From a virus (lineage: Duplodnaviria; Caudoviricetes): DNA of 43,086 bases. Both the position numbers and the translations under genes were made by a program. Under the pieces are notes generated by a model, which was given only the letters and a program-made list of their open reading frames with translations, was not told the DNA's origin and ran no database searches. Position 1 is the stretch's first letter, and each line of letters begins with the position of its first letter. Shown in pieces: positions 25,847 through 39,335 of this stretch. The DNA is taken from the IMG/VR virus record IMGVR_UViG_3300046710_000040, positions 1 through 43,086 of that record; one strand, given 5' to 3'.

Positions 25847-25894
25847 TTATAACTGCCGGTACAGCCGACAAGCGGCTGACCTCCTGTGTTAAAC
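25847..25894 (+). other. attC-like site A1 (48 bp, leftmost site of array A)
   Basis: TTATAAC-TGCCG-GTACAGCCG-ACAAG-CGGCTGAC-CTCCTGT-GTTAAAC; one extra base in the left arm. Confidence 0.75.
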
Positions 25895-26006
25895 TACTCT
25901 GCCAAGGCATCGGCAATTGAAATGAGACAACCATCACAGAGTTTTTCAGTGTCGTGTTTTGTCTGACAGCCGGAAACTTCGGCCCTCTTCACTTGGGTGT
26001 GGAAAG

Positions 26007-27335
26007 TCATTTAATCTTACCTGAGTTAACGAACTCAATCAGTGTGGAAATGTCTACACCGTAACTCACAGTTTCAGTGTCATCGGTAGCACCAGTTGTC
26101 CGGGCAAAAGTACAATTATCAAATGCCCTTGCCTTGAAAGGTTTCTTCTTATGATACAGCTGATGAGTGCCTTTGGTGAACAGTAACTTAAAGCGTAGCA
26201 CTTCAAACGAATAGCCTTCGCCAGAGTCATAAACTCTACGGATGACGCTGTTTAAGCCCTCGGTAAAGGCGTTGGTAAACTTGTAATCCCAGTACGTGAA
26301 TATCTCATTCGACCAATTGGAAAAGGCTGTGAAGATGTCCTTGAAATACTTACGAACATATTCAGGAATGGAGTTATTCCAGGCATCGTACAGGTATATG
26401 GCCTCTTCCTTGGTTTCTGCCAGCCAGATATCGAGAAACCGTTCCTTGGCATCGTACACATGTTCCATTTCAGGCCACAACCTGAACCAGCTTTGCAACG
26501 TGGCTTCCTTGAATGGGTCAAGGTCTATGTTGCGGCTCATTAGCGTAAATCTGTCACTGAAGAGCATTGCACGTTGTCTGCCTGTGGTGTCCCTGCGTAA
26601 TTGCTTCCGGTACGCCTCAATGGAGTTCTGTACCATTCTGACGATATGGAACCGATCTATTACAATGATAGCCTTGGGAAAGACGAGACGAGCCGCATCA
26701 CGGTATGTAGGCCACATGTCCATGCAGATGACTTCAACGGCAGAAGCATCAAGCGTATGGAAGTATTTGATGACGGTTGGCTTGTCTCTATCCCGTAGAA
26801 ATCCGATGAGCTTGCCGCCCTCAATATTGGTGACAACACAGCGGTACTTATCACGTTTCTTTTTGCCAAGGCAGATCTCGTCAATACCAAGCACCCTGGG
26901 TGTGACCATCGGCATTGCCTTCTCTTCCCTGTGGGACATATCGAGGAAGATGTTACGAACAGTGTTGATGTTGCAGCCGACGCTATGGGCCACAACATCA
27001 AATTTATGGACAATGCTTTGGTTGGCAATCCAATCGACCAGCCGGGTTGTCATATCCCGCCTTTCGTCAATGCCAATCATACGTTCAAAGAATATGGCTT
27101 CGCATTCCGAGCACTTAAAACGTCGGTGCTTAACGCAAATCTTTACGCATTTGCCTGTGTTTATGTGGTCAAAGTACCAATGGTCTCTTGCATCATGCCT
27201 CTTGAACGTAGCACTGAAACTGCCACATTTGACACAGCGCATCGGTAAGTGTTGGTACTCAGCTTTTACGGCAATATGTTCATCAAGTTCAGCTGAACTG
27301 GTTACTGTAAAGTTTGGCAGGTTGATCTCGATCAT
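26007..27335 (-). CDS. ISL3-family transposase
   Basis: N-terminal zinc finger CVKC...CSEC; LGIDE, CMDMW, DRFHIV, TNAFTEGLNSVIR. Confidence 0.95.
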   Translation of the reverse strand: MIEINLPNFTVTSSAELDEHIAVKAEYQHLPMRCVKCGSFSATFKRHDARDHWYFDHINTGKCVKICVKHRRFKCSECEAIFFERMIGIDERRDMTTRLVDWIANQSIVHKFDVVAHSVGCNINTVRNIFLDMSHREEKAMPMVTPRVLGIDEICLGKKKRDKYRCVVTNIEGGKLIGFLRDRDKPTVIKYFHTLDASAVEVICMDMWPTYRDAARLVFPKAIIVIDRFHIVRMVQNSIEAYRKQLRRDTTGRQRAMLFSDRFTLMSRNIDLDPFKEATLQSWFRLWPEMEHVYDAKERFLDIWLAETKEEAIYLYDAWNNSIPEYVRKYFKDIFTAFSNWSNEIFTYWDYKFTNAFTEGLNSVIRRVYDSGEGYSFEVLRFKLLFTKGTHQLYHKKKPFKARAFDNCTFARTTGATDDTETVSYGVDISTLIEFVNSGKIK

Positions 27336-27351
27336 GGAGTCTCCGTCATCA

Positions 27352-28080
27352 TTAATAGCCGATTGCTATGGCTTCGCAGAGAATGCCACAATCACTGGCA
27401 ATAGGCAATTCATGCCGACCAGCGGTAGGATCAAGTTCGTCAAGGTAGACGCCCTTTATACACGAAGCACCGATAACTCTCTCCAGTCTGGCCCTTGCCG
27501 CAAACTCCTCCGGAAAGTCAATGCGGTTTTTGTTGAAGTAGCCCATTCCGCCACGGACACACATGATGCAGTTGTTGTTGTGATAGCCAAGTTCATACAT
27601 TACGGGGCGCTTTATGCCGCTTGCAGCCAATACCTCATGAGCCTGCACTTTGCTCATTTTCTTCTCAACCAGTGGGAACAGATGTTGCTGATTTGGACAA
27701 CTAAGGCAAATGCCCTCACAGCGAGACTTTTCGCCGTAATCCATTCCCCACACATAACGGAGCTGAACATCAATAGGCTGCTCATATTCCCATTGTTTAC
27801 GAACATCCCGCTTGAGGTATTTGGTGCAAGGAGAAAAGCCTCTACCAGTGATGTAACCCTTACCACCAGCAGACAAACAAGCAGTTTCAACGTTTTTCAA
27901 TGGGGATTGAAGTACCTCAATCTCTTTGCCAAACCATTGTTCACAGTCCTTTACAAACCTCATTGTGTCGGGATGCTGATCTTCAATATGTGTGTAGATA
28001 ATGCGGTCAATCTCGTTGATAGCCAACTTTGTTGCTACGGCACTGGAAACACCAGCTGAGAACCACGATACAGTTAGCAT
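27352..28080 (-). CDS. PAPS-reductase / adenine-nucleotide alpha-hydrolase family protein (IS passenger)
   Basis: SWFSAGVSS PP-loop-like motif, PCTKYLK, YELGYHNNNCIMCVRGG. Start moved to MLTVSW (GGAGG RBS). Confidence 0.8.
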   Translation of the reverse strand: MLTVSWFSAGVSSAVATKLAINEIDRIIYTHIEDQHPDTMRFVKDCEQWFGKEIEVLQSPLKNVETACLSAGGKGYITGRGFSPCTKYLKRDVRKQWEYEQPIDVQLRYVWGMDYGEKSRCEGICLSCPNQQHLFPLVEKKMSKVQAHEVLAASGIKRPVMYELGYHNNNCIMCVRGGMGYFNKNRIDFPEEFAARARLERVIGASCIKGVYLDELDPTAGRHELPIASDCGILCEAIAIGY

Positions 28081-28470
28081 ATAGAACCTCCATTCATAGG
28101 AGTACAATACCATGGAATGCGTATCAATTCAACACCCAAATAACAACTGTCCATTATTAACCGACTATGGCCCTTCCACACTCAAATACATAGGGCCGAA
28201 ACTTCCTTGAGTGTTGTCCGTAACTTCTCGTTTTCCTGGACTTTGGCCTTGTAGCTATTGCCACGGTCTTTCACCTGCACCTTGAGACAACTCACATCGA
28301 GACGGAGTTTTTCAATCTCTGCGACTGAGCGGCGCAAGACTTCCTTTTGCTCTATTTTGAGTTGACGGTTCAGACCCACGCAGTCAGCCTCAATGTCTCG
28401 CCAATCGTCCAACCAGCCTTTCAAATTAGTTACTATGTCGGTAATTTCGCTCATTGATTTTCCTTTCGTA

Positions 28471-28530
28471 GTTTAACCAGCGTTCCGACCCGACCAAGAA
28501 GCCGGACGGGTCAAACGCCAGCCGTTAAGC
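28471..28530 (+). other. attC-like site A2
   Basis: GTTTAAC-CAGC-GTTCCGACCCG...CGGGTCAAAC-GCCAGCC-GTTAAGC. Confidence 0.85.
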
Positions 28531-28932
28531 GTATCTCTGTTTCCATCCACAAACCGGATCAGGAAGAATCCAGAAATGCCGCATGTTGGCCACGTTGACA
28601 ATCTGACTGTCTTCAGGAAGCACTTCGACGGCATAACTTTCCCCACGGCCGATTTGACGCTTCACGGACATGAGTTCGTCCCAGGTAAGATTTTCTTCCC
28701 ACTTGCCGAACTGATCCATTGACGTTCGATTGACCGACACCCTGAAGATCCCACCCCCTTCGTCAAACACCTGGACCAGAAACCGAGAAGACAACCATGC
28801 TTCAATCATGGAATCTACGCGGCCAGTTTCAGGCCATTTGTCCCGCGGAACCTGGAACAGAACAGAAGAACGTTTCGCATTTTGCTTTTCCAGTTCCCGC
28901 CGCTGATGATTTAACACGCTTTTTCTTTTCAC
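28525..28932 (-). CDS. Conserved hypothetical phage protein (cassette 2)
   Basis: LTWDELMSVKRQIG...AVEVLP...IVNVANMRHFW; TAA stop inside the R' box of A2. Confidence 0.75.
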   Translation of the reverse strand: MKRKSVLNHQRRELEKQNAKRSSVLFQVPRDKWPETGRVDSMIEAWLSSRFLVQVFDEGGGIFRVSVNRTSMDQFGKWEENLTWDELMSVKRQIGRGESYAVEVLPEDSQIVNVANMRHFWILPDPVCGWKQRYA

Positions 28933-29495
28933 TGGCTTCTCTCTTTTTTAAGCAATCTCACAACAGCGTCGAGAACGTCAGCCACATAATGAGCAGGTAC
29001 ATTGCTACCTTTGGCCCGAGCTTCGTTGAGAACGGCAAAACCGTCAAAAAGCACTTCCGGCATTTGCGACACGAAAGAAACGGTCCTGGTAGAAGTGTTT
29101 TTCTGATGTTCACGGAGCCGAACCGTTTCTTCCTGGTCCCGTACCCATTTCATCTGAATGTGAAGGTCCGCTTCATCCTGTTCAAGCCCCATACTGTCCA
29201 CAATCCTGAACTGGACTTGATGCCAGAGTGAACAATCACAACAGCCATGCCCGAGCTTCATCCCTTCCAGCTGAACCCATTCACCACTTCCCACCTTTGC
29301 CGCTTCAGCCCCTTCCGATGTTTCGAAAGTAGCACCGCCAAGCTTCAACGCTTCATTGCATTCAGTACAACAACAGATACCATCCCCGCCATGTCTATTC
29401 ATCGTTCCCCCCTTACAAGCACATTGATTTATCGCTTTTGAGCAAACACCACATAAATTTCCAGCTTCAACGTTCTCCTCTTGCACCACCCGCAC
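28929..29495 (-). CDS. Cys-rich hypothetical protein (cassette 2; start uncertain)
   Basis: GCCDCSLWH motif; overlaps the start of the next gene. Confidence 0.5.
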   Translation of the reverse strand: MRVVQEENVEAGNLCGVCSKAINQCACKGGTMNRHGGDGICCCTECNEALKLGGATFETSEGAEAAKVGSGEWVQLEGMKLGHGCCDCSLWHQVQFRIVDSMGLEQDEADLHIQMKWVRDQEETVRLREHQKNTSTRTVSFVSQMPEVLFDGFAVLNEARAKGSNVPAHYVADVLDAVVRLLKKERSQ

Positions 29496-29602
29496 ATTTG
29501 CACATATACACCGTTCCCGGATGCAGCAGCTTTGACGGCTTCACGCTCGATAAACTGCCTGTTTGCCTGTTCCTCAATCTGGTTCCAGTTTAATGACGAC
29601 AT
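29429..29602 (-). CDS. Small hypothetical protein (cassette 2)
   Basis: AAGGAG RBS before MSSLNW. Confidence 0.4.
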   Translation of the reverse strand: MSSLNWNQIEEQANRQFIEREAVKAAASGNGVYVQMCGWCKRRTLKLEIYVVFAQKR

Positions 29603-29624
29603 CTGGCTTACTCCTTGCATTTCT

Positions 29625-29683
29625 GCTTTTACATCGGGTTATCCAGTTATCGCTGCCGATCGGCTGTATAATCATTGTTAAAC
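29625..29683 (+). other. Degenerate attC-like site A3
   Basis: R'' position reads GCTTTTAC (AAC lost); imperfect stem TTATCCAG...CTGTATAA; intact R' GTTAAAC. Confidence 0.5.
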
Positions 29684-29687
29684 ATCT

Positions 29688-30545
29688 CTATGCCGTGTAC
29701 TGGCTGAATCTGCTTTTTGTCCAGATACGGGGCTGATTTCCCCATCTCGACAGTCTGTTATTTTGTCTGTTCTTCACGAACGGCTGAACGTGTGTATTGA
29801 TGTTGAGCCGGTGCAGATAGTCCAGCCGGTAAAGATCCTGCTTTGGTGTCGTTTCGTGGCCTGTCAGAACGTAGAAACCTATCCTTGACCGTTTCACCGG
29901 AAACCCTGCATCCCTCAAGAGCCGGATTCCCCGCTTGACAGATGGCATCAGATCCATGCTATCCCATGCAAAACGCAGATACGGCGGGGCGAGTTGTGCC
30001 AACAGTTCCGCTTTCTCTTCGTTCAACAGCCGGATATCAAGCCCCTGATTGAAGTCTACCCGCAGTTTGCGGATGATCATTTCCTGTAATTTTGCTTTCC
30101 ACAGGGGCGAACCTAGAAAATTGTTATCCAGCAGGGTTACATCTTTGTGCCTCACAAACTCATCCAGTGGCGACCACTCAGAAACCCCGCCCTCTTTTGC
30201 CGGTACGATGCAGAATGAGCAATCACGGAAGCATCCCCGCGAAGTGAAACCCATGCTGTAGTCAATCCCGTACAGTGTGTAATCAGGGCAGATATGCTCA
30301 ATCTCAGGCGGCAAAACAACCGAGTAATCACCTGTACCGCACCCGCCAATAACTCCACCCAATGCCCGTTGAATCTTCCTTGCTTGCGGCATGTTCTTAG
30401 AGAAAACAACGGAGATAAAGACCTTATCCGCAGGAGCGCAGGAGTTAAGCACGACCTCTGCCCCTTGCGCTTTCCAGTGCGCTGACATTTTCATCAGAGC
30501 TAGATTCGGAGTGTTTCCGTCTATGTCAATCAGGTTGATTTTCAC
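29688..30545 (-). CDS. Radical SAM protein (cassette 3)
   Basis: SRGCFRDCSFC CxxxCxxC motif; PNLALMKMSA, LLDNNFL, DFNQGLDIRLL. GTG start after GAGGGG RBS. Confidence 0.85.
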   Translation of the reverse strand: MKINLIDIDGNTPNLALMKMSAHWKAQGAEVVLNSCAPADKVFISVVFSKNMPQARKIQRALGGVIGGCGTGDYSVVLPPEIEHICPDYTLYGIDYSMGFTSRGCFRDCSFCIVPAKEGGVSEWSPLDEFVRHKDVTLLDNNFLGSPLWKAKLQEMIIRKLRVDFNQGLDIRLLNEEKAELLAQLAPPYLRFAWDSMDLMPSVKRGIRLLRDAGFPVKRSRIGFYVLTGHETTPKQDLYRLDYLHRLNINTHVQPFVKNRQNNRLSRWGNQPRIWTKSRFSQYTA

Positions 30546-30559
30546 GATTCCCCTCCGAT

Positions 30560-30613
30560 GTATAACCATCGCATCCAGCGGATTAATCCCCGCTGATGCT
30601 CAAGCCGTTATAT
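30560..30613 (+). other. attC-like site A4
   Basis: GTATAAC-CATC-GCATCCAGCGG...CCGCTGATGC-TCAAGCC-GTTATAT; extra C in the left arm. Confidence 0.9.
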
Positions 30614-31198
30614 GCTTGCCCGTAATTGCTGCACCCATTCTGTCCGACTGTTGGTGCGCTCGACTTCTTTCGCATTCCCTTCTGTGTGGTACTTTATGTC
30701 TCGGGCAGCACTCGATACCGCTTCCACGTAGTACACCTTTGCCGGCTTAGCTTGTGCTTCGGTCAGCGATCTCTCTGAGTAGTCAACGCTGTTCTTGCTC
30801 ACGTCGATTTGTTGGAGCATGAAATCCTTCAACCCTTGGTGGTCTTTCGTTGGAGGAGTCCATGCGCGAACTTGCGCGGCCATCTCTTCAAGACGGCTGT
30901 TCTCGGCCAGAGCCTTTTCAAGATATTTCCGGCTTCGCTCAATATCCTCGGCCTTTGCTGCTTCCCCAAAAGTCGTTCTTTCTTCGATGCTCATTGCTTT
31001 GAGTTTTACCAGTTCTTCACGCGCCGAAATAAGCCGTTTTGCGTTGTAATCTGACGGTTCAAATTTATCAGGAATCGGCGCGTCGTTTGGACTGTCGCGC
31101 ATTTCAATAAGTGCCCCAAAAGCACGAGCGCACCCCATGATAAATTCCGGGAAAGTTTCGCCTGACTCCATCAATTTAGCTGTATATCCTGTTGGCAT
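30608..31198 (-). CDS. Conserved hypothetical phage protein (cassette 4)
   Basis: MPTGYTA...CARAFGALIEMRD; TAA stop inside R'. Confidence 0.75.
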   Translation of the reverse strand: MPTGYTAKLMESGETFPEFIMGCARAFGALIEMRDSPNDAPIPDKFEPSDYNAKRLISAREELVKLKAMSIEERTTFGEAAKAEDIERSRKYLEKALAENSRLEEMAAQVRAWTPPTKDHQGLKDFMLQQIDVSKNSVDYSERSLTEAQAKPAKVYYVEAVSSAARDIKYHTEGNAKEVERTNSRTEWVQQLRASI

Positions 31199-31225
31199 GC
31201 TGATCTCCTTTTATTGCACCAACGC

Positions 31226-31285
31226 ATATAACTAGACGCTGGTGCTGTCTGCGCTGCGCTTGCAGCACAGCTCAAGCCGTTATCT
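31226..31285 (+). other. attC-like site A5
   Basis: ATATAAC-TAGAC-GCTGGTGCTG...CAGCACAGC-TCAAGCC-GTTATCT. Confidence 0.9.
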
Positions 31286-31522
31286 CCAACGCTTAATAGC
31301 CTGGATATCCTCTAAAATAGACCGGCACGTTTGGCATGTAACGCGCCCCTGACGCTCTTCCCCGCTGTGGTATCCGTCGTCGCCCTCAAGCTGTATGCCA
31401 CAAACTGTCCGAATACACGGGCCAGCAGATGTTATTGCGTGCCACTCATCCGAATCGACTAGATGCCCCTCGAAATGTTTATCGTCTGGGTTGGTTGCCT
31501 CAATTCGCACTATTTTTGCCAT
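31280..31522 (-). CDS. Small putative Zn-binding protein (cassette 5)
   Basis: WH...TVCG...VTCQTC; TAA stop inside R'. Confidence 0.65.
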   Translation of the reverse strand: MAKIVRIEATNPDDKHFEGHLVDSDEWHAITSAGPCIRTVCGIQLEGDDGYHSGEERQGRVTCQTCRSILEDIQAIKRWR

Positions 31523-31536
31523 AAATTACCCCCTGG

Positions 31537-31605
31537 AGATAACCAGGACGCCGGACACCGACCGCCAAACACCCGGCGGACGGGTCAGCGCCATGGCCGT
31601 TATAA
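31537..31605 (+). other. attC-like site A6
   Basis: AGATAAC-CAGGA-CGCCGGACACCG...CGGGTCAGCG-CCATGGCC-GTTATAA. Confidence 0.85.
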
Positions 31606-31607
31606 TG

Positions 31608-31790
31608 CTAGTCGATTACCGGCAATCCAGCAATAAACCTGTCGTAGTCCCATGAATAATAGGCATCCTGTTCCGACATAGGCACCCCCTCAATTAAAGG
31701 GCATGTTTGACCTCTCAGCCAATGCCGAAACGGCTCACGTTGCTCTATCGGCAGATCCTTGATTCTAGGCCAACTTTGTTTTTTAGGCAT
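31608..31790 (-). CDS. Small hypothetical protein (cassette 6)
   Basis: MPKKQSWP...FRHWLRGQTCP...AYYSWDYDRF; GGAGG RBS. Confidence 0.65.
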   Translation of the reverse strand: MPKKQSWPRIKDLPIEQREPFRHWLRGQTCPLIEGVPMSEQDAYYSWDYDRFIAGLPVID

Positions 31791-31816
31791 AATATTTCCT
31801 CCGTGGCACCGCCGCA

Positions 31817-31878
31817 CTATAACCAGCGGCAGGTGCATGTTTCGCTGCGCTCAAATGCACAGCCTTATGACGTTATAA
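31817..31878 (+). other. attC-like site A7
   Basis: CTATAAC-CAGCG-GCAGGTGCAT...ATGCACAGC-CTTATGAC-GTTATAA. Confidence 0.85.
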
Positions 31879-31918
31879 TGCTAGTAGTTGCTGCTGTGCT
31901 TGATCGTTAAATTACTCT
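31872..31918 (+). repeat. 47-bp direct repeat copy 1 (R' box plus attC half-site)
   Basis: GTTATAATGCTAGTAGTTGCTGCTGTGCTTGATCGTTAAATTACTCT is identical to 36152-36198. Confidence 0.95.
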
Positions 31919-32181
31919 GGCCGCTTCATCCCTTTAACGTTGCCGAGTTTTCCATTCGCAGTCTGAAGATTGTACCTTGCAGATTCGCAATTCTGGTTTG
32001 CTCGTTCCATCAAATGAGCGTGAGCTTGATCCCATGTGTCGTGATAAGTTTCGTGCTGTGACGTTTTCGCGCTTCTTCGTCCGTTGATCCACAATGAAGA
32101 ATCTGATTCGCGCTCAACTTCTACCGGAGTTATTTTTGTTACGACTCCCCATGAAGTTCGTTCCGTTCTGAATTTAATCAT
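31912..32181 (-). CDS. Hypothetical protein (cassette 7)
   Basis: AAGGGG RBS; fills the space between the half-site and A8. Confidence 0.7.
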   Translation of the reverse strand: MIKFRTERTSWGVVTKITPVEVERESDSSLWINGRRSAKTSQHETYHDTWDQAHAHLMERANQNCESARYNLQTANGKLGNVKGMKRPE

Positions 32182-32205
32182 CTGTTGCCCCTTTCTAAAT
32201 TCGTA

Positions 32206-32255
32206 AGTTAACCAAACACATCAGCGGTCAAGCCGCTGTGTTCAAGCCGTTATAG
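32206..32255 (+). other. attC-like site A8 (50 bp)
   Basis: AGTTAAC-CAAAC-ACATCAGCGG-TCAAG-CCGCTGTGT-TCAAGCC-GTTATAG. Confidence 0.85.
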
Positions 32256-32302
32256 TGATAATTCTTTAAATATCCTTGCCGCTTCATCTTTACCAAAATG
32301 GT

Positions 32303-32989
32303 TTATTGAATATTTTTTCTAGACCTTGCACCTGCGACACCTATGCATTTAGATATTGATGGTCTGCTTTTGATTAATGAATGCCCGAGATCGTCTATAT
32401 CCCAACCACAATTAATTCTTTGGTGCAAAGTCCCAACGGATATCCCTAATTTTTCGGATAACTGAGATAGTGACTCATATCCTACACCGTCATAAGATAT
32501 TTTCTTATTTGTGCTTTTATTTCTTTGTTGCTGTTTTTGTGTAGCCCATCGGCAGTTTTCCGGTTCATAATTGCCGTCATTATTTTTTCTATCTATGCTG
32601 TGCCTTGAAGATGGTTTCTTGCCCATATCGGATAAAAACACTCTAAAATCTTCCCATTCCTTACAAACTGTTATCCCTCTCCCTCCATAGCGGTTGTATT
32701 TTTTAGATTTTTTATTATAGCATCTAGTAAACATTCCCGCCCACGATCTGTATTCGGTGGTATTACAAGCAGAATGCTTAGTGCTTGATTCGGAGACTCG
32801 TTCTTTTTGTAAACAACCGCAGCTCTTAGTGGATCTGCTTTGTAAGTGATCGATCCTAATTATTTTAGTTTTGCCACATACGCATTTACATAAAAACCTG
32901 CGCAATCCATTCTTGTAATTAGAGGATTGTTCGATTATTTCAAGCCTACCAAAAAACATTCCACATTTGATTTCTATACTTTTATGCAT
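32303..32989 (-). CDS. HNH homing-endonuclease-like protein
   Basis: CKCVCG...KSCGC, YGGRGITVCKEW, SIDRKNNDGNYEPENCRWAT; AT-rich. Confidence 0.85.
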   Translation of the reverse strand: MHKSIEIKCGMFFGRLEIIEQSSNYKNGLRRFLCKCVCGKTKIIRIDHLQSRSTKSCGCLQKERVSESSTKHSACNTTEYRSWAGMFTRCYNKKSKKYNRYGGRGITVCKEWEDFRVFLSDMGKKPSSRHSIDRKNNDGNYEPENCRWATQKQQQRNKSTNKKISYDGVGYESLSQLSEKLGISVGTLHQRINCGWDIDDLGHSLIKSRPSISKCIGVAGARSRKNIQ

Positions 32990-32999
32990 AGCATACCCT

Positions 33000-33302
33000 T
33001 TATAACCAAAATTTATCACCTTTTTCATATAACCATAATTCATTGAATTTAGCAATAAGTTTTTCTGGGTCAAGTTCCCACCATTTCCAAAACTCTCTAC
33101 CGCTTGCGTGACGTTGGGCATGGTGCCAGACACACAGCGGTATCATACGACTATCGCAACATTTTCCGCCCATAGTGCCGTGACCTTCAAGTTGTTCATG
33201 GTGTCCTACCGCAGATTGGTCACAAATAACGCAAGGCAAACGACCGACAAAATTCCGGTACTTCCGGCTATAGATTGCTTTTGTTTTTGGCTGAGGTTTC
33301 AT
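33000..33302 (-). CDS. DUF968-like Zn/HNH-type protein
   Basis: KYRNFVGRLPCVIC...HH...IPLCVWHHAQRH. Confidence 0.7.
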   Translation of the reverse strand: MKPQPKTKAIYSRKYRNFVGRLPCVICDQSAVGHHEQLEGHGTMGGKCCDSRMIPLCVWHHAQRHASGREFWKWWELDPEKLIAKFNELWLYEKGDKFWL

Positions 33303-34633
33303 AACTGTTCAAACCGTTGGAACATCCCCATCCATGCTACGGGTATGCTTATGTTCCGTTCGCCGTTTCTCTGCTTCTCAATGATGATTTCCGCTTGTGC
33401 CTGATGTTCTCGGTAAATATGATTGCAGTCATCTTCCGCGCGATCCCGACACTTCGGGCAATAGGCGGCAGGCCGGAAGGGGAAAATGATCACGTCTGCA
33501 TCCTGCTCGATTTCTCCTGAGTCTCTGAGGTCCGACATAAGGGGCCGCTTGTCTGGTCGTGAATCCACAGTGCGGTTCAACTGAGACAGAAGGATTATTG
33601 CGATATCCAGTTCACGCGCTATGATCTTCAGCCCCCTGGATATCTCACCCAAACCCTGCACCCTGTTATCCTTTGCTGGTATCGACATAAGCTGAAGGTA
33701 ATCAATCACGGCAATATCCAGCCCCTTCCGTTTTTGCCGCTTGATCTTCGCTTTCACGTCCCGCAGTGTGACGCCTGGGGTGTCGTCAATAAAAAGGTTC
33801 CATCCGGTTATATCAGCGCATGTGTTTGTGCATTTTATCCATTCAGAATCTTCCAGCCTACCGTTGCGGATATGATGGAGCTTGATATTCCCCCTGTCCG
33901 CAAAGAATCGATCCATGCAATCTTCTTTCGACATTTCAAGAGAAAACAACATCCCATGTTTACCGGACACACAAGCGGCCCTGAGAATGTTTGACGCCAT
34001 TACTGATTTACCCATTGAAGGACGCCCCGCGATAATTACCAATTCCCCTCGGTGAATTCCGTTAGTAACAGAATCAAGGCCATCAATACCCCATGACATG
34101 CCCTGCAAAGCTCCTTTCTGCTGATACCTGCCCTTGAGTCTCTTGACAGCTTCTTTCACCAACTGAGGGGTGGCTACTGGCTCATTATGCTGTTGCTTGA
34201 ACATCCCTGTCAGGTTGCTTTCCATCTTTTCCGCTATTTCTTCGGAAGTAGAACCGCTCTCAATCATAGAGAGAGTCTGTTGCGCTTGAGCCTGGAATCT
34301 CCGCTTTGTAGCCATTTCGAGAACTATTTTGCAGTAATAAGCCACGTTCGCAGAAGTGGGAACATAATCAGCCAGCATCAGCAGGTAAGCGGCCCCGCCT
34401 ACCTCTTCAAGATATCCCTGCTCTTTCAGTAATGCCGACATAGTTACGAAGTCGCAAGGCTCATTGCGGTCATTCAGCACAAGCATAGCCTGAAGTATTT
34501 TTCTGTGTGCCTCTCGGTAAAAATCTTCAATCGTGAGCGTTGACATAATCCGGTCAAGGGAGGTCTGATCAATAAAGACACTGCCGAGTATCGACATTTC
34601 AGAATCTATGTTTTGAGGAGGTAAATTATTCAT
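33299..34633 (-). CDS. dnaB: Replicative DNA helicase
   Basis: PPQNIDSE, AGRPSMGKS Walker A, IDYLQLM, SQLNR, DLRDSGEIEQDAD, KQRNG. Confidence 0.95.
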   Translation of the reverse strand: MNNLPPQNIDSEMSILGSVFIDQTSLDRIMSTLTIEDFYREAHRKILQAMLVLNDRNEPCDFVTMSALLKEQGYLEEVGGAAYLLMLADYVPTSANVAYYCKIVLEMATKRRFQAQAQQTLSMIESGSTSEEIAEKMESNLTGMFKQQHNEPVATPQLVKEAVKRLKGRYQQKGALQGMSWGIDGLDSVTNGIHRGELVIIAGRPSMGKSVMASNILRAACVSGKHGMLFSLEMSKEDCMDRFFADRGNIKLHHIRNGRLEDSEWIKCTNTCADITGWNLFIDDTPGVTLRDVKAKIKRQKRKGLDIAVIDYLQLMSIPAKDNRVQGLGEISRGLKIIARELDIAIILLSQLNRTVDSRPDKRPLMSDLRDSGEIEQDADVIIFPFRPAAYCPKCRDRAEDDCNHIYREHQAQAEIIIEKQRNGERNISIPVAWMGMFQRFEQL

Positions 34634-35369
34634 ATTGAGCAAGTTTCCTTTTCAGTGCGTCGGATGCCTGAAAAACAGGAGGATCGGACTTTATCAAACA
34701 CAATGCTGATTCATCTTCCCACCGCCGCGCCGTAAGCCACCCTTGCGCCATTTTAGGGGTTTTGCCATCGGATATGAGCGTCGGACGCCTTAACGCTTCC
34801 GACTTGGCAGCGGTCACAATCTTTTCGACTTCTGCCATTGTCAGCTTTTCAATATCTAGCCATGCGTCTGCTGCTTCAGCCCGTCCTGATTTGTAAGAGA
34901 ACGCTTCCCAAAACTTCAGGAATGTTTCGAGTCTCTTGCCAGTCAGTTTCCTTTTTTTCTTCGTGATAATTGTGTCAGCTTCATCGGCAGATGAAGAAGG
35001 TATTTCTAAAGGATTAGGATTAGGATTTATAGTAGGTGTTTTCTCCCTGTCGCCTACCTGTCGGCTACCTGTTTTACTGCTGTTTTCTTGCCTTTCTAAG
35101 TTATTGAAAATTAGCCTTATTTCCTGTCGGCTACCTGTTTCCTTCCTGTCGGGCAGATGTTTTCCATCTGTTTTCAACTCCGAGGTAAAACGCCGTACTT
35201 TATCCCTACTCCAAGTCCATATTCTTGAGTAATCGCTAATGGATTTTTCCGCCTCTTCGTCAAGGTCTTTCGCAAAGGAAAAAGCCGCCTCCAAAATTGT
35301 ATAAGGACGTTCTCGTGGTAGAAAAGATGCCAGTCGCTTGTCAAGCGGTATCCAATTCCCGTCTTTCAA
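34626..35369 (-). CDS. Putative replication initiator / replisome organiser
   Basis: Upstream of dnaB; N-terminal HTH-like WTWSRDKVRRF; C-terminal FLKFWEAF...AQGWLTARRWEDE. Confidence 0.7.
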   Translation of the reverse strand: MKDGNWIPLDKRLASFLPRERPYTILEAAFSFAKDLDEEAEKSISDYSRIWTWSRDKVRRFTSELKTDGKHLPDRKETGSRQEIRLIFNNLERQENSSKTGSRQVGDREKTPTINPNPNPLEIPSSSADEADTIITKKKRKLTGKRLETFLKFWEAFSYKSGRAEAADAWLDIEKLTMAEVEKIVTAAKSEALRRPTLISDGKTPKMAQGWLTARRWEDESALCLIKSDPPVFQASDALKRKLAQYE

Positions 35370-35370
35370 G

Positions 35371-35496
35371 TTATGCCCCTGGTATGATCGGCGTACCGCA
35401 TACAGGACAGTAAAGAGCGTTTACAGGAACCATAAACTCAGCGCCAGTTTCAGGATCGATATACACACCAAAATATTTGACTTCACAGCATTGCAT
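35371..35496 (-). CDS. Small Cys-rich peptide
   Basis: MQCCE...YCPVCGTP; start uncertain. Confidence 0.35.
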   Translation of the reverse strand: MQCCEVKYFGVYIDPETGAEFMVPVNALYCPVCGTPIIPGA

Positions 35497-35759
35497 GTTG
35501 GCGCCCGTAGAAAACAAAAACCCCCTTTGAAGGCGGCATCCTTCGCGGGGGGAGTTTGCTGAATCAGACGCTTTCGCGCCATCATCAAAGCAGATAATCA
35601 CGTTATGCCGAACGTGTTCAATATTAAATTGTAAGTTGCGGCGGCAGGTTGCTCCCTTAAACGGTCTGCATGTAAACACTGCCGCCAATGTTGTCATTAT
35701 CGCGTCCGACTGGATTCCGCCCTATGCGGTGCCGGCCCCCTGGTGGTATTTTCGCTACC

Positions 35760-36098
35760 TTATTCCAGCAATTCAGACCTGTCAACTACATTTTCTGCCT
35801 GTTCCGCATGGTACGTCCTCATGATCATATTCCACGCCGCTTCATAACCATGCCGACAACCTGTCTCTTCGTCCACTGAGAGAGGATCAATCTGACAAGC
35901 CACTGTATGCCTTAACGAAGCAGAGAAAAACCGTTGTGAGCCATTATCGAAAGGTTTCAGACAATTAAAACGTTCATATTTTTTGCATCCCGCTTCAGCG
36001 ACCTTAATCAGACCTTTCAGACAAACCAGAGGAAAGCTATGCCAGTCGATTTTACCCTGATCGTATTTTAAACCGCTGTCGTCTTTATTATCTGGCAT
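35760..36098 (-). CDS. DUF5664 (dATP/dGTP diphosphohydrolase N-terminal-like) protein
   Basis: GLKYDQGK...GCKKY...SLRH...DEETGCRHGYEAAWN. Confidence 0.75.
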   Translation of the reverse strand: MPDNKDDSGLKYDQGKIDWHSFPLVCLKGLIKVAEAGCKKYERFNCLKPFDNGSQRFFSASLRHTVACQIDPLSVDEETGCRHGYEAAWNMIMRTYHAEQAENVVDRSELLE

Positions 36099-36100
36099 TC

Positions 36101-36158
36101 TTATAACTCCCGTTGGAACTGACTGCGCTTCGCTTCGCAGTTCAACTCCTTGTTATAA
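36101..36158 (+). other. attC-like site B1 (leftmost site of array B)
   Basis: TTATAAC-TCCC-GTTGGAACTG...CAGTTCAAC-TCCTT-GTTATAA. Confidence 0.85.
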
Positions 36159-36198
36159 TGCTAGTAGTTGCTGCTGTGCTTGATCGTTAAATTACTCT
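36152..36198 (+). repeat. 47-bp direct repeat copy 2
   Basis: Identical to 31872-31918. Confidence 0.95.
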
Positions 36199-36207
36199 CG
36201 GAGGAGT

Positions 36208-36615
36208 TTACTCGTCCCGCCACTTCTTTTCTAACAGCTCGTTTATTTCATCCATCGAGTTATCCATGAGCCAGAAAACATCGACGCCTTTGTAAATGAT
36301 CTCCTCGACCTCAAAATCCTCCTCCTCGTCCTCTGCAACTTGATCGTATGTAGCAAGGAAGATATCATTTTTAATAGGGTAGTTTTCTCCCTGAACTCCG
36401 GTAATGATCCAGTCACCAGGGCAAACCTCTTGCGCACCGCCCTTGCCTTCAAGCGTGATGATTGTGCCGTGGATTATCGCCGGTTGCCCGCATTTCTCAC
36501 AAGCAGGTGGGTCGAGGTCTTGCGGGATGTAAACCCGTTTGACGTTCGAGTGGTCACCATCTTTATTCCACTGAGTTGCTTCGATTGGGATTGGTTTCTT
36601 GACAAATTTTGCCAT
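36208..36615 (-). CDS. PGDYG-like conserved phage protein (cassette 8)
   Basis: KKPIPIEATQW...TLEG...PGDWIITGVQGENYPIKNDIFLATY. Confidence 0.75.
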   Translation of the reverse strand: MAKFVKKPIPIEATQWNKDGDHSNVKRVYIPQDLDPPACEKCGQPAIIHGTIITLEGKGGAQEVCPGDWIITGVQGENYPIKNDIFLATYDQVAEDEEEDFEVEEIIYKGVDVFWLMDNSMDEINELLEKKWRDE

Positions 36616-36619
36616 GTTC

Positions 36620-36874
36620 TTATCTCCTTTGGTTTAGTTTCAGCCATAGCATCATGGCGAAGTTTGCAACGTCAACGAGCGCCTTTTGTGGCACATTGTG
36701 TCCGAGTGTTACTATCTGTGCCGCCTTAGTCAGCAGCTTGCCAGGGATGTCATAATTCTGGAAACCTCCGCAGTCCCAGCCGTGGAAGCCCTGTTTATGT
36801 TTCTGAATCATTCTGGCTTTCATTGCATCTGCGAACCTGTCAACAGCATTGCAGTAGTCGGCTTTTTCTGACAT
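36620..36874 (-). CDS. Conserved hypothetical phage protein (cassette 8)
   Basis: VDRFADAMKARM...GW...VDVANFAMMLW. Confidence 0.7.
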   Translation of the reverse strand: MSEKADYCNAVDRFADAMKARMIQKHKQGFHGWDCGGFQNYDIPGKLLTKAAQIVTLGHNVPQKALVDVANFAMMLWLKLNQRR

Positions 36875-36891
36875 GGCACCCACCTTTCGTA

Positions 36892-36950
36892 ATCTAACAA
36901 CGCCTCGCAGCGGGCGATAAGGCCCGCCGCTGAAGTCGCAGCCGTTATAC
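36892..36950 (+). other. attC-like site B2
   Basis: ATCTAAC-AACGC-CTCGCAGCGG...CCGCTGAAG-TCGCAGCC-GTTATAC. Confidence 0.85.
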
Positions 36951-37250
36951 AGCTATGCAGCCTTTCTGCCGAATTGAATCAATCATCCATTCGTACCCAT
37001 AGAATCCCTTGGTTGCCCTTCTGATCTTTGCAGCCTCTTTCCCGTCAACGGGGCGAACGGACACAGAAGCGCCCCATCCATCGCCGAAATTGTAGTAGTA
37101 GCTCTTTGCACTCAAAATTTCTTGTGCCTTCGCTTCGTTCGCCTTTCCCTTGCCAAAGTCAACGATTTTGGCATATAGGTTGTTCGCTCCTGTCCATTTT
37201 CCGTCCCAAGATCCTGCGTTTGGCATCGAAAGTTCAAAACATACTTTCAT
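36945..37250 (-). CDS. Conserved hypothetical phage protein (cassette 9)
   Basis: FELSMPNAGSWDGKW...FGDGWGASV...GFYGYEWMIDSI; AGGAGG RBS; TAA stop in R'. Confidence 0.75.
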   Translation of the reverse strand: MKVCFELSMPNAGSWDGKWTGANNLYAKIVDFGKGKANEAKAQEILSAKSYYYNFGDGWGASVSVRPVDGKEAAKIRRATKGFYGYEWMIDSIRQKGCIAV

Positions 37251-37268
37251 CACTATCCTCCTTACGCT

Positions 37269-37331
37269 GTATAACCAACGCATAGACGCTGGTTTTGCTA
37301 CGCTTCACAGGTCATGCTTGACCCGTTATCT
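37269..37331 (+). other. attC-like site B3
   Basis: GTATAAC-CAAC-GCATAGACGCTG...CAGGTCATGC-TTGACCC-GTTATCT; two extra bases in the left arm. Confidence 0.9.
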
Positions 37332-37515
37332 ACCACCCGACCAACCGCCATTGTGTGTCGGTCAGACCATCGTGATAGTGTTGTAGCAGATACCCTCTGC
37401 CAAGGTCAGGGCAATCGACTTTGAGTTGCCCGTTTTGCCTGTAAATTTCCACCGGAGTCCATTCACCATCTGTTTCACCGCAGGAGACTTCATATTTTCC
37501 GGGTTTTGTTGGCAT
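37330..37515 (-). CDS. Small hypothetical protein (cassette 10)
   Basis: MPTKPGKYEV...; stop abuts R'. Confidence 0.6.
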   Translation of the reverse strand: MPTKPGKYEVSCGETDGEWTPVEIYRQNGQLKVDCPDLGRGYLLQHYHDGLTDTQWRLVGW

Positions 37516-37607
37516 AAATTACCTAAAGTTCTGCAGGAGTTGAAAGCCGCTATCCATGCGGGTTGACGTGCCATTAACGGTGGAAATTGCGTGATTTCTG
37601 CAGGAGC

Positions 37608-37656
37608 AGATAACCATCTTATTCGACCGGGCAAGCCGGTCAAACGGTCGTTATGC
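37608..37656 (+). other. attC-like site B4 (49 bp)
   Basis: AGATAAC-CATCT-TATTCGACCGG-GCAAG-CCGGTCAAA-CGGTC-GTTATGC. Confidence 0.75.
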
Positions 37657-38124
37657 CTTAATACCAAGAGACTCTTTCAGCCGAGTCACAGCCATATCCA
37701 TGTTTTGCTTGATAACCTGCTGAGTCACCAGTGAAGTGAAGTCAGCTTTGAACTTTGCTACCTCTTTTTGCACAACCTCCGTCACAACAGATGTAAACGA
37801 GTTTCTATCGCTGGAGTAATTGGCCTGCTTGAATGTGCATTGTGCCTGCACAAAGCCTGCAATTCTCTCGCGGATACTCGCCTCTTTGCCGCTCCGACCG
37901 TAAGCATCTGTATCGGTAAACTTGGTATCCATCGTCATAGTTATTGCATCCTTTGTCACCTGAGTAACGACTTCAACCAAGTTCTTCTCAAGCATCTCTG
38001 TCAATGCCGCTTTTGCCTGAGTTCGCATTGAAGTTAAGAGTGCTTGCGATACCTGCTCAATAACCTCGTCGCGGATTGTTGTTTCATCTCCAAGAATATC
38101 AGCGGTGTTAATAGTGATCTGCAT
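37651..38124 (-). CDS. Helical hypothetical protein (cassette 11)
   Basis: AGGAGG RBS before MQITINT; TAA stop in R'. Confidence 0.7.
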   Translation of the reverse strand: MQITINTADILGDETTIRDEVIEQVSQALLTSMRTQAKAALTEMLEKNLVEVVTQVTKDAITMTMDTKFTDTDAYGRSGKEASIRERIAGFVQAQCTFKQANYSSDRNSFTSVVTEVVQKEVAKFKADFTSLVTQQVIKQNMDMAVTRLKESLGIKA

Positions 38125-38156
38125 TTGCATCCTCCTTTGATTTTGGCAACGAACTG

Positions 38157-38217
38157 GCATAACCAGCACGCTGCACTCTGTTGTCGCTTCGCTCCACAGG
38201 TGAGCTTAGCGTTATAT
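38157..38217 (+). other. attC-like site B5
   Basis: GCATAAC-CAGCAC-GCTGCACTCTG...CAGGTGAGC-TTAGC-GTTATAT; two extra bases in the left arm. Confidence 0.9.
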
Positions 38218-38219
38218 TA

Positions 38220-38468
38220 CTAAACTAACTTTGCTAGTGTTTGACTGCAAATAGACCATTCTTCGTCGAGTTCGAGTTCCTTGGCGTACATTCGGTTTTC
38301 GCGAATAGCCTGTATTTTTGTAAGAGCATCGATTGCAATTTCTATCTGCTTGAGTCTTGCATTGTGCTCGTTTTGAGCGTGGCAAATATCGGAGTACAAA
38401 ACATATTTGCCAGTATCATCTTGGCACATTTCGCCTTCGTCTAAATCATGTCTCAGCATTTGTCCCAC
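38220..38468 (-). CDS. Hypothetical protein (cassette 12)
   Basis: Coupled ORF with MCQDDTGKYVLYSD motif. Confidence 0.55.
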   Translation of the reverse strand: MGQMLRHDLDEGEMCQDDTGKYVLYSDICHAQNEHNARLKQIEIAIDALTKIQAIRENRMYAKELELDEEWSICSQTLAKLV

Positions 38469-38692
38469 TCCTTGTTGAATGCGTAAATTGCCAGTCGTGG
38501 AGTATCACCAAATCCGGCAATGCCGACTTGCAAATTTTCACCGTAGAGGACACACCATTGATTGCCATCCTTGGAAAGCGTAGGTTTAAGCATAGCAAAA
38601 AGATTCATCTCTTCTGATTCAATCGCCGCACTTAATCTGCTTTGTCCCACCTTATCAGCCCACATTTGCTCACGTTCTGATGTTGTATCCAT
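38453..38692 (-). CDS. Conserved hypothetical phage protein (cassette 12)
   Basis: KDGNQWCVLYGENLQVGIAGFGDTP. Confidence 0.7.
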   Translation of the reverse strand: MDTTSEREQMWADKVGQSRLSAAIESEEMNLFAMLKPTLSKDGNQWCVLYGENLQVGIAGFGDTPRLAIYAFNKEWDKC

Positions 38693-38717
38693 ATCTCCCC
38701 CTTTTTATTTATCTCAT

Positions 38718-38987
38718 CTACGGTCTCACCGAATCCACGTACTCCATGATCTCTGTGGCAGCGTCATAGACTGTTCCTGGTACAAGATAGGTGTCTTCGT
38801 CAAGTACCCAAGGGCAAACGAGGTCACATAGTTTAGCCAGCCGCCCAAGAGATTCGGCATACTGTTTTTCCAAAGACAGCCATTCTTCCTGAGTTTGAGG
38901 TTGTGATTGCGGCGGTATCGTGTCAAAGGTTTTCCCGCATTTGGTACATTCCTTCACCCCGACCAGTTCATGTTTGCAATTTTCCAC
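38718..38987 (-). CDS. Hypothetical protein (cassette 12)
   Basis: AAGGAG RBS, GTG start, CKH...CTKCG. Confidence 0.55.
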   Translation of the reverse strand: MENCKHELVGVKECTKCGKTFDTIPPQSQPQTQEEWLSLEKQYAESLGRLAKLCDLVCPWVLDEDTYLVPGTVYDAATEIMEYVDSVRP

Positions 38988-39018
38988 GATGTTCTCCTTG
39001 TTGTTGCAGTCCTACGAA

Positions 39019-39074
39019 ATATAACCAAACGCTCGAAGCGGATGCTTCGCACCGTTCAGCTAAAGCCGTTATTT
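39019..39074 (+). other. attC-like site B6 (last site)
   Basis: ATATAAC-CAAAC-GCTCGAAGCGG...CCGTTCAGC-TAAAGCC-GTTATTT; extra C at position 4 of L'' as in canonical attC. Confidence 0.9.
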
Positions 39075-39335
39075 GTTCCGAACCGTGTCTTTAAACAGAA
39101 ACGCCCGCGCCCTGTCTTCCGTCGCTTCACGATCCATCCGGTCCTTCATCTGTTGCCTGACGTTCGCCTGATCCTGGTTGACGGCCTGAGCCGCTTCCAT
39201 GTCGGACTTTCCGACAAAGCCCAGGACCAGGACAAACAGCGCAAACAGTATGCAACAATACACGACTTGCCCCTTCGTCATTCGTTTGCAGTTCATAGCT
39301 TCCCCCCCGTTCAGGTAATGTCGCCGGTTTTGCAC
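39069..39335 (-). CDS. Small membrane protein
   Basis: One TM segment; TAA stop in the R' box of B6; true start probably MNCKR. Confidence 0.6.
   Translation of the reverse strand: MQNRRHYLNGGEAMNCKRMTKGQVVYCCILFALFVLVLGFVGKSDMEAAQAVNQDQANVRQQMKDRMDREATEDRARAFLFKDTVRNK

What the first reader, a model, noticed from the sequence alone, without database searches (positions are those of the whole stretch)
25888..39025. Each cassette's two ends are complementary, the footprint of circular-intermediate insertion
Seen: the sequence starting at each R' box is the reverse complement of the sequence ending at the NEXT R'' box. Pairs: GTTAAACTAC/GTAGTTTAAC 10/10 (25888/28477); GTTAAACATC/GATGTATAAC 9/10; GTTATATGC/GCATATAAC 9/9; GTTATCTCCA/TGGAGATAAC 10/10; GTTATAATGC/GCACTATAAC 9/10; GTTAAATTAC/GTAAGTTAAC 9/10; GTTAAATTAC/GTAATCTAAC 9/10; GTTATACAGC/GCTGTATAAC 10/10; GTTATCTAC/GCAGATAAC 8/9; GTTATGCC/GGCATAAC 8/8; GTTATATTAC/GAAATATAAC 9/10. 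The two boxes of the same hairpin usually match only over 4-6 nt. Established: IntI crosses over between G and TT of R', so an integrated cassette's first bases pair with its own R'' only in the excised circle. Inference: these units were mobilised as circles, recently enough for the matches to survive. Terminators or generic palindromes would not produce this pattern.
Basis: partly seen in the sequence, partly recalled or inferred. Interest (0 to 1): 0.85.

Follow-up and report, generated by a model that had tools for sequence, protein, structure and literature searches.

The report
Reversed integron cassettes in a phage
A complete phage genome carries eleven integron-type gene cassettes whose two ends are complementary, as in bacterial integrons, but the genes read on the opposite strand from normal cassettes, and the same units occur re-ordered in related DNA, likely moved by an integron integrase that related phages encode.

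Summary
All 11 quoted pairs are real: 62/78 matches beyond the core against 30±5 shuffled, 0 of 200,000. This end-complementarity is the known integron hallmark (9-11 nt, Bouvier 2009; a Vibrio control scores 80/90). It does not date the insertions.

The setting is what is unusual. The window is a complete 43-kb phage with no tyrosine recombinase. It has two attC arrays (13 intact hairpins) flanking the replication genes. The extrahelical base makes + the attC top strand, yet all cargo genes read on the minus strand. Each hairpin therefore precedes its gene, and the cut site falls at or just after the stop codon.

Independent metagenome contigs break at the + strand G|TT boxes and one shows a re-ordered array. 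Homologous cassettes keep the upstream hairpin (5 of 7), never the downstream one. Related Geobacterales prophages carry the same hairpins, reversed cassettes and their own IntI. Most homologs of the cargo genes are plain phage genes without hairpins.

No circle was seen directly. This scan noted reversed phage cassettes before on other genomes. I found no paper describing them.

The parts
25850..25891 (+). Orphan attC-type hairpin at the left end of array 1, overlapping the -35 box of a promoter-like site for the terminase small subunit gene
   Evidence: a contig in run X4 has the same flank and hairpin followed by a different cassette
25888..28523 (+). Cassette 1 (ends 10/10) with its hairpin 28474-28527; gene on the minus strand, interrupted by an IS
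   Evidence: IS-free allele starting exactly at 25888 in run X5
25981..28197 (-). ISL3-family element with transposase (26007-27335) and a PAPS-reductase-like passenger gene (27352-28113); 8-nt target duplication at 25973 and 28198
28524..29676 (+). Unit with non-matching ends (6/10): DUF7694 gene and a 188-aa ORF, followed by a degenerate hairpin (about 29636-29680)
29677..30606 (+). Cassette (9/10): radical SAM gene phrog_9298 on the minus strand; hairpin 30563-30610
   Evidence: 94%-identical cassette among other neighbours in L213
30607..31278 (+). Cassette (9/9): phrog_8905 gene, stop codon inside the R' box; hairpin 31229-31282
31279..31598 (+). Cassette (10/10): phrog_15583 gene; hairpin 31540-31602
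   Evidence: moves with this hairpin in runs X2 and X7, and in X7 is joined to the cassette at 36944
31599..31871 (+). Cassette (9/10): small ORF of no known family; hairpin 31820-31875
   Evidence: X2 contig matches 31597-31876 only
31872..31918 (+). 47-nt segment repeated exactly at 36152-36198: a 34-nt remnant (a cassette tail fused to an attC 3' arm, inferred) plus the next box
   Evidence: 100% over 47 nt; travels with the 31906 cassette in X2
31906..32248 (+). Cassette (9/10): 89-aa ORF; hairpin 32209-32252
32249..36107 (-). Core phage block between the arrays, ends not matching (7/10): HNH genes, DnaB helicase, replication initiator, dGTP diphosphohydrolase
36104..36155 (+). Orphan hairpin at the left end of array 2, immediately upstream of the dGTP diphosphohydrolase start codon
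36186..36943 (+). Two-gene cassette (9/10): phrog_419 gene and an 87-aa ORF; hairpin 36895-36947
36944..37324 (+). Cassette (10/10): about 101-aa gene, stop codon in the R' box; hairpin 37272-37328
   Evidence: 0 of 31 viral homologs examined are cassettes
37325..37649 (+). Cassette (8/9); hairpin 37611-37653; reading frame uncertain
   Evidence: X4 contig matches 37322-37654 with other flanks on both sides
37650..38210 (+). Cassette (8/8): about 154-aa gene, stop codon in the R' box; hairpin 38160-38214
   Evidence: L527 (85% identical protein) has the identical upstream hairpin and another downstream one
38211..39067 (+). Three-ORF cassette (9/10); hairpin 39022-39071, whose R' box holds the stop codon of the next phage gene (39069-39335)

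Best explanation
The phage carries two integrase-less arrays of integron-type cassettes with reversed polarity: each gene lies on the attC bottom strand, its hairpin sits upstream of it, and an integron integrase (IntI) supplied in trans likely cuts and re-joins the units at the G|TT box that falls at or just after the gene's stop codon. Shown: the boxes, the end matches, the extrahelical base on one arm, gene strand, breakpoints and a re-ordered joint at G|TT, retention of the upstream hairpin, and intI with an attI-like site in related phages and prophages. Inferred from established IntI chemistry: folding of the bottom strand, excision as a circle in which the cassette's own two ends complete the R box, and re-insertion at attC, attI or GWT secondary sites. 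Inferred reason for the reversal: in those phages intI lies inside a phage operon and is read with it; the array keeps the usual divergent geometry to intI, so only antisense cassettes are transcribed by the phage promoter.
For: Permutation 62/78 or 57/78 against about 30, 0 of 200,000. Top strand called + for 12 of 13 sites; the 13th is a mis-extended call over the remnant. The same caller gives the canonical answer on a Vibrio array (16 of 16 sites +; 7 canonical, 0 inverted, 7 uncalled) and agrees with published bottom strands for TJE1_attC2 and P12002L_attC1. Inverted/canonical/uncalled: window 4/0/2, 7 viral records 10/0/1, 13 prophage-type loci 9/1/6. Modelled circle junctions fold more stably than in-array ones in 10 of 11. 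Of 33 loose ends shown in six non-source runs, 19 lie at a G|TT box and 3 at a TAAC box, chance about 1.5%. Run X7 joins 31595 to 36941 across the box. Upstream hairpin kept in 5 of 7 homologous cassettes, downstream in 0 of 7; ends covary. G001, which shares a cassette, encodes IntI above the TIGR02249 cut-off with catalytic motifs; 18 phage-context IntIs group together.
Against: No tyrosine recombinase in this complete genome, no attI seen, no circle or RNA data. The extra base is the canonical bottom-strand G in only 5 of 13 sites, and the L'-R' spacer is up to 8 nt. L213 (94% identical gene) and L201 do not keep the upstream hairpin, so hairpins are also swapped by another route. G.T wobbles favour the bottom strand in the window (4 to 0) but not in other phage arrays (7 to 5). 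The 18-row IntI group has weak support (SH-aLRT 84, quick tree). One prophage unit was called canonical and one chromosomal unit inverted. Metagenome contigs can be chimeric at short repeats, and 28 loose-end rows were not shown.
Confidence: 0.82

Rival explanations
1. The units are shuffled by the phage's own RecT/exonuclease VIII (or host RecA) using the short similarity between hairpins, and the attC look is a relic.
For: The genome encodes exonuclease VIII and RecT but no IntI. Hairpins are exchanged between genes (L213). The 34-nt remnant looks like a microhomology deletion (inferred).
Against: Breakpoints cluster at one box of the two (19 against 3 of 33). The X7 joint has only 9 shared letters. 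Homologous recombination does not explain end complementarity with changes on both sides.
Confidence: 0.09
2. The arrays are pieces of a host chromosomal integron captured whole by the phage, as with the Vibrio anguillarum phages of Qi et al. 2023.
For: Window hairpins occur at 95-100% identity in Geobacterales genomes. IntI is common in that order: 104 of 239 genomes above the cut-off.
Against: All 9 hairpin-hit loci that I annotated (L410-L418; L419 and L420 were not annotated) have phage genes around them. The chromosomal array in L441 is mostly canonical (4 canonical, 1 inverted). Cargo genes are phage families, and most homologs are cassette-free phage genes. The arrays sit at two separate places in the phage operon.
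Confidence: 0.05
3. The hairpins are RNA-level signals (terminators, processing or translation sites) and the end matches are a by-product.
For: They lie between co-transcribed genes, a few tens of bases before start codons.
Against: Terminator-like sites are not enriched (14 against 15.0±3.6). The TAAC and GTTA cores are invariant in 13 of 13. The matches pair across a gene, not within a hairpin. Mobility maps to the boxes.
Confidence: 0.03

Closest known systems
Integron gene cassettes and attC sites (Bouvier et al. 2009, PMC2727003; passages read)
   Different: Genes lie on the bottom strand, so the hairpin is 5' of its gene and the stop codon meets R' rather than R''. Sites are short (48-69 nt with 7-nt boxes; 5 of 13 under the 57-nt lower bound given there). 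The extra base is G on the bottom strand in only 5 of 13.
CALINs in phage genomes (Qi et al. 2023, PMC9892861; parts 1-4 of 7 of the text, i.e. all but the reference list, and part 1 of 2 of the supplement)
   Same: attC clusters without intI in phages; short phage attC sites, five of six recombined by IntI1 in E. coli; methyltransferase-type cargo in relatives.
   Different: The 14 phages of their Table S1 have 2-4 sites each; this genome has 13 intact sites in two arrays. They do not remark on genes being antisense to attC. My caller finds TJE1 canonical, but the sites it detects in MW202573 and P12002L_attC1 are reversed.
Complete integrons captured by temperate phages (Vibrio phage MK672802, Shewanella M16-3; same paper)
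   Same: intI and an array inside a phage genome.
   Different: Those are canonical host integron segments. The IntIs found here sit among phage replication and terminase genes, are co-oriented with the cassette genes, and group apart from the chromosomal Geobacterales IntIs.
Inverted-integrase integrons of Treponema (Cury et al. 2016, PMC4889954; passages read)
   Same: intI and cassette genes end up co-oriented.
   Different: There intI is flipped relative to the attC sites; here intI and attC keep the usual divergent geometry and the genes are flipped relative to attC.
attG secondary-site insertion (bioRxiv 10.1101/2022.09.11.507474; passages read)
   Same: IntI inserts cassettes at a bare GWT motif, which could seed arrays at TAA-C stop codons of phage genes such as 39068 (inferred).
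   Different: Shown for bacterial chromosomes with canonical cassettes; not tested here.

Membership tests
attC site | R'' box ending AAC and R' box starting GTT around an imperfect palindrome | tested here: met
   TAAC and GTTA invariant in 13 of 13 sites; all fold as stems
attC site | R'/R'' pairing within one cassette, 7 to 11 nt | tested here: met
   11 of 13 intervals; permutation 0 of 200,000
attC site | Extrahelical base in L'', normally G on the bottom strand | tested here: inconclusive
   An unpaired base on the expected arm in 12 of 13 automatic calls, but it is G on the bottom strand in only 5 of 13
attC site | Length 57-142 nt | tested here: inconclusive
   48-69 nt; 5 of 13 below 57. 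The TJE1 sites, which IntI1 recombines, are of like size
attC site | Recombined by IntI as a folded bottom strand, cut in R' | not testable with these tools
   Indirect only: breakpoints at G|TT
CALIN | Two or more attC sites within 4 kb on one strand | tested here: met
   With my own detector, not the IntegronFinder model
CALIN | No integron integrase nearby | tested here: met
   0 PF00589 matches in the complete record
Canonical gene cassette | Gene on the attC top strand, followed by its own attC | tested here: not met
   All family-matched cargo genes are on the minus (bottom) strand; the upstream hairpin travels with the gene
Complete integron | intI and attI next to the array | tested here: not met
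   Absent from this genome; intI and an attI-like site are present in relatives such as G001, L316, L473
Complete integron | Pc promoter driving the cassettes from the attI end | not tested
   No RNA run listed; the gene direction would make Pc antisense

The most novel reading that the evidence does not exclude
Phages run their own integron system and are cassette factories. A phage-restricted IntI lineage inserts reversed cassettes at TAA-C stop codons, where insertion harms no gene; an ordinary phage gene that ends up between an upstream hairpin and such a stop becomes a new cassette once its ends are tuned to pair. This would be a concrete route for cassette genesis and a cassette pool that is silent in bacterial integrons.
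Probability: 0.35. Interest if true: 0.9.

Novelty: new variant of a known kind. Interest (0 to 1): 0.68.

Why it matters
Integrons are viewed as bacterial tools, lately as stores of anti-phage genes. Here phages appear to use the same chemistry to reshuffle their own accessory genes (methyltransferases in relatives, nucleotide enzymes, unknowns), with a mirror-image cassette design and their own integrases. How cassettes arise is an open question: a 2016 paper says no reliable model is available (PMC4792948, passage read). Gene families that exist both as cassettes and as plain phage genes, such as phrog_8905, give a direct way to study gain and loss of cassette ends. Tools that assign each attC to the gene upstream on the top strand would mis-assign these cassettes.

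Tried and rejected
Rfam: no match in the window. A covariance model from the 13 sites came out without base pairs and was not used. The DnaB scan of viral contigs found no relative. Of 80 terminase-small-subunit loci only L020 had a clear array; the closest one, L001, had none. The pattern scan of viral contigs was mostly chance: 8 of 130 sequences examined, the window included, had two or more candidate units. No match of 36890-39100 in 50,697 GenBank phage records. No RNA holder was listed, which says nothing on expression. No contig joint forming a cassette circle was seen; the one 'goes back' joint inside the region (38566 to 38132, X1) is not at a box. Wobble polarity was not a usable general test. 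Most of the 40 Geobacterales IntI regions fetched had no array my strict TAAC/GTTA detector could score, so the chromosomal comparison rests on a few loci. The careful IntI tree did not finish; only the quick tree is used. Literature: 8 searches found no paper on reversed phage cassettes; the library lacks most subscription papers, and the Dryad annotation file of Qi et al. was not seen.
Full report
What the window is. The window is the whole record G000, a 43,086-nt virus genome with direct terminal repeats and 100% estimated completeness. Lysis, tail, head, portal and terminase genes run on the minus strand to 25770; small ORFs fill 25.8-32.3 kb; HNH, DnaB and a replication initiator lie at 32.3-35.7 kb; more small ORFs run to 39.3 kb; exonuclease VIII and RecT are on the + strand beyond. 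No tyrosine recombinase was found. The run holding 99% of the sampled words is a peat metagenome and may be the source. The host is likely a Geobacterales bacterium, because window hairpins occur there at 95-100% identity; only that order was searched, so this is an inference.

The observation. All 11 pairs are as quoted. With all 13, the six positions outside the fixed core match 62 of 78, against 30.1±4.7 in 200,000 shuffled pairings, none reaching the observed value. A stricter choice of boxes gives 57 of 78 with the same outcome. The match stops at about position 10. Modelled as circles, the junctions fold more stably than in the array in 10 of 11 cases, by 2.75 kcal/mol on average.

That pattern is known. 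Bouvier et al. state that R'/R'' self-pairing extends to 9-11 nt in most cassettes. A Vibrio chromosomal array captured by a phage scores 80 of 90 by the same measure, against 56 of 66 for the 11 window cassettes. The match does not show recent insertion: between the window, L200 and L201 (65-70% protein identity) both ends have changed together and still pair. The array also shows decay: an ISL3 element in cassette 1, a degenerate hairpin, and two 34-nt remnants.

Polarity. I assigned top and bottom strands from the arm that carries the unpaired base. Twelve of 13 window sites give + as top; the other call over-extended into a remnant. The method gives + for 16 of 16 Vibrio array sites whose genes are mostly + and agrees with the bottom strands published for TJE1_attC2 and P12002L_attC1. 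All cargo genes with a family match lie on the minus strand, and most units open on that strand with a ribosome-binding site and start codon. An in-frame TAA coincides with the R' box at 6 of 16 boxes and lies within 5-22 nt at 6 more. A strict automatic tally of inverted/canonical/uncalled units gave: window 4/0/2; seven viral records 10/0/1; thirteen prophage-type loci 9/1/6; Vibrio control 0/7/7; TJE1 0/1/0; forty-six IntI loci 7/8/4, where five of the seven inverted units are in one prophage, L473. Wobble pairs favour the bottom strand 4 to 0 in the window but only 7 to 5 in other phage arrays, so that test adds little.

Mobility. Contigs of six other peat metagenome runs from four studies were laid on the region. 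Of 33 loose ends shown, 19 fall within -5 to +7 of a + strand G|TT and 3 near a TAAC box; those 3 are ends of hairpin-only matches. Chance is about 1.5% per end. The same variants recur between runs, so these are about a dozen distinct junctions by hand count, and 28 rows, some of them from the source run, were not shown. Pieces such as 31597-31876 (X2) and 37322-37654 (X4) hold a gene plus the hairpin on its right. One X7 contig carries cassette 31279 with its hairpin joined directly to cassette 36944. An X4 contig has the terminase-side flank and orphan hairpin followed by a different cassette. An X5 contig gives the IS-free allele starting exactly at 25888. Among homologous cassettes in other phages and contigs, the hairpin upstream of the gene is the same or clearly related in 5 of 7 (identical in L527), the downstream one in 0 of 7. 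The exceptions are L201 and L213; L213's upstream hairpin is identical to window 28474-28527, which here precedes another gene. No circle was observed.

The integrase. G001, a phage sharing the phrog_8905 cassette, encodes a protein above the TIGR02249 integron-integrase cut-off, overlapping its phage integrase gene, with the catalytic motifs present. Relatives at 61-79% identity occur in four other viral contigs and three bacterial genome contigs. In a quick tree of 59 IntIs, 18 group together (SH-aLRT 84, weak; two subgroups at 99). Thirteen of them have terminase, portal or tail genes nearby, two are on viral contigs, and three have only phage-type replication, recombination or methylase genes. 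Seven loci from other groups that I checked had no terminase or portal hit among their largest ORFs. Upstream of 11 of 12 phage-type intI genes is AAC, five bases, then TT(A/C), read by eye; in G001, L316 and L473 that AAC is the matching end of the last cassette, as expected of attI.

Origin of the cargo. Most homologs are plain phage genes. For phrog_8905, 4 of 53 loci examined were flagged as cassettes, plus L476 by eye (10 of 63 loci were dropped as partial or duplicate). For the gene at 36945, 0 of 31 (31 of 54 loci examined). For the radical SAM gene, 1 of 6 (the closest of 73). For the gene at 37651, 1 of 2. In a quick tree the six cassette forms of phrog_8905 cluster inside cassette-free genes and need two changes; L478 and L479 sit among them without ends, so loss occurs too. 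One gain from a phage gene fits the tree but is not proven.

Mechanism. Shown: boxes, end pairing, polarity, breakpoints, hairpin linkage, IntI in relatives. From established knowledge: IntI cuts the folded bottom strand in R', excises circles and re-inserts them at attI, attC or GWT sites. Inferred: this phage borrows IntI from its host or a co-resident prophage (104 of 239 genomes of the order have one above the cut-off); the reversal follows from intI being read within a phage operon; and the cut at TAA-C lets cassettes enter between phage genes without damage.

Prior art and verdict. Phage CALINs are published (Qi et al. 2023), with 2-4 sites each in their Table S1 and no remark on gene strand; two of their examples look reversed by my caller. 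Eight literature searches found no description of reversed phage cassettes. This scan's earlier notes report the same design on other genomes; I had reached the reading before looking, and they are not counted as support. The finding as written is real and ordinary for integrons. The system it belongs to is a new variant: a large, demonstrably shuffled array of reversed cassettes in a phage. Interest 0.68.

Noticed in passing
window:25981-28197: ISL3 element carrying a PAPS-reductase-like gene (phrog_424), inserted in a cassette gene with an 8-nt target duplication; an IS-free allele exists in run X5.
   Followed up: partly
window:31872-31918 and 36152-36198: Identical 47-nt segment at both arrays; looks like a cassette tail fused to an attC 3' arm. 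A similar tail starts a full cassette in L415 at 1380.
   Followed up: partly
window:39335-39661: Divergent promoter region with a short Cro-like ORF but no repressor or integrase gene found, although the layout is lambdoid and the genome is complete.
   Followed up: no
window:36950 (loose ends in X3, X4, X5, X6): After hairpin 36895-36947 a variant continues with a ribosome-binding site and ATG on the + strand, which would be a canonical-direction gene next to a reversed cassette.
   Followed up: no
G001:C1:35017-35290 and 1-177: A 180-nt cassette without a long ORF is tandemly repeated next to the attI-like site; the contig ends overlap there.
   Followed up: partly
L410-L418, L298, L316: Reversed cassettes in Geobacterales prophages often carry DNA methyltransferases; the array and intI often sit just before the terminase genes, in several unrelated phage types including Mu-like ones.
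   Followed up: partly
L432, L433, L446-L449, L451-L461, L468: A widespread Geobacterales IntI group with ORFs of about 450-475 aa (long N-terminal extension) and mostly no detectable array.
   Followed up: no
L585:4680-5678 (Virus Rctr41k, KX853513): GenBank phage with an IntI-like gene annotated xerD inside a run of co-oriented small genes; one attC-like hairpin at 8418-8542.
   Followed up: partly
L583:2072-2700 (MW202573) and L586:30008-30056 (P12002L): attC sites in two published phage CALINs appear reversed relative to their genes.
   Followed up: partly
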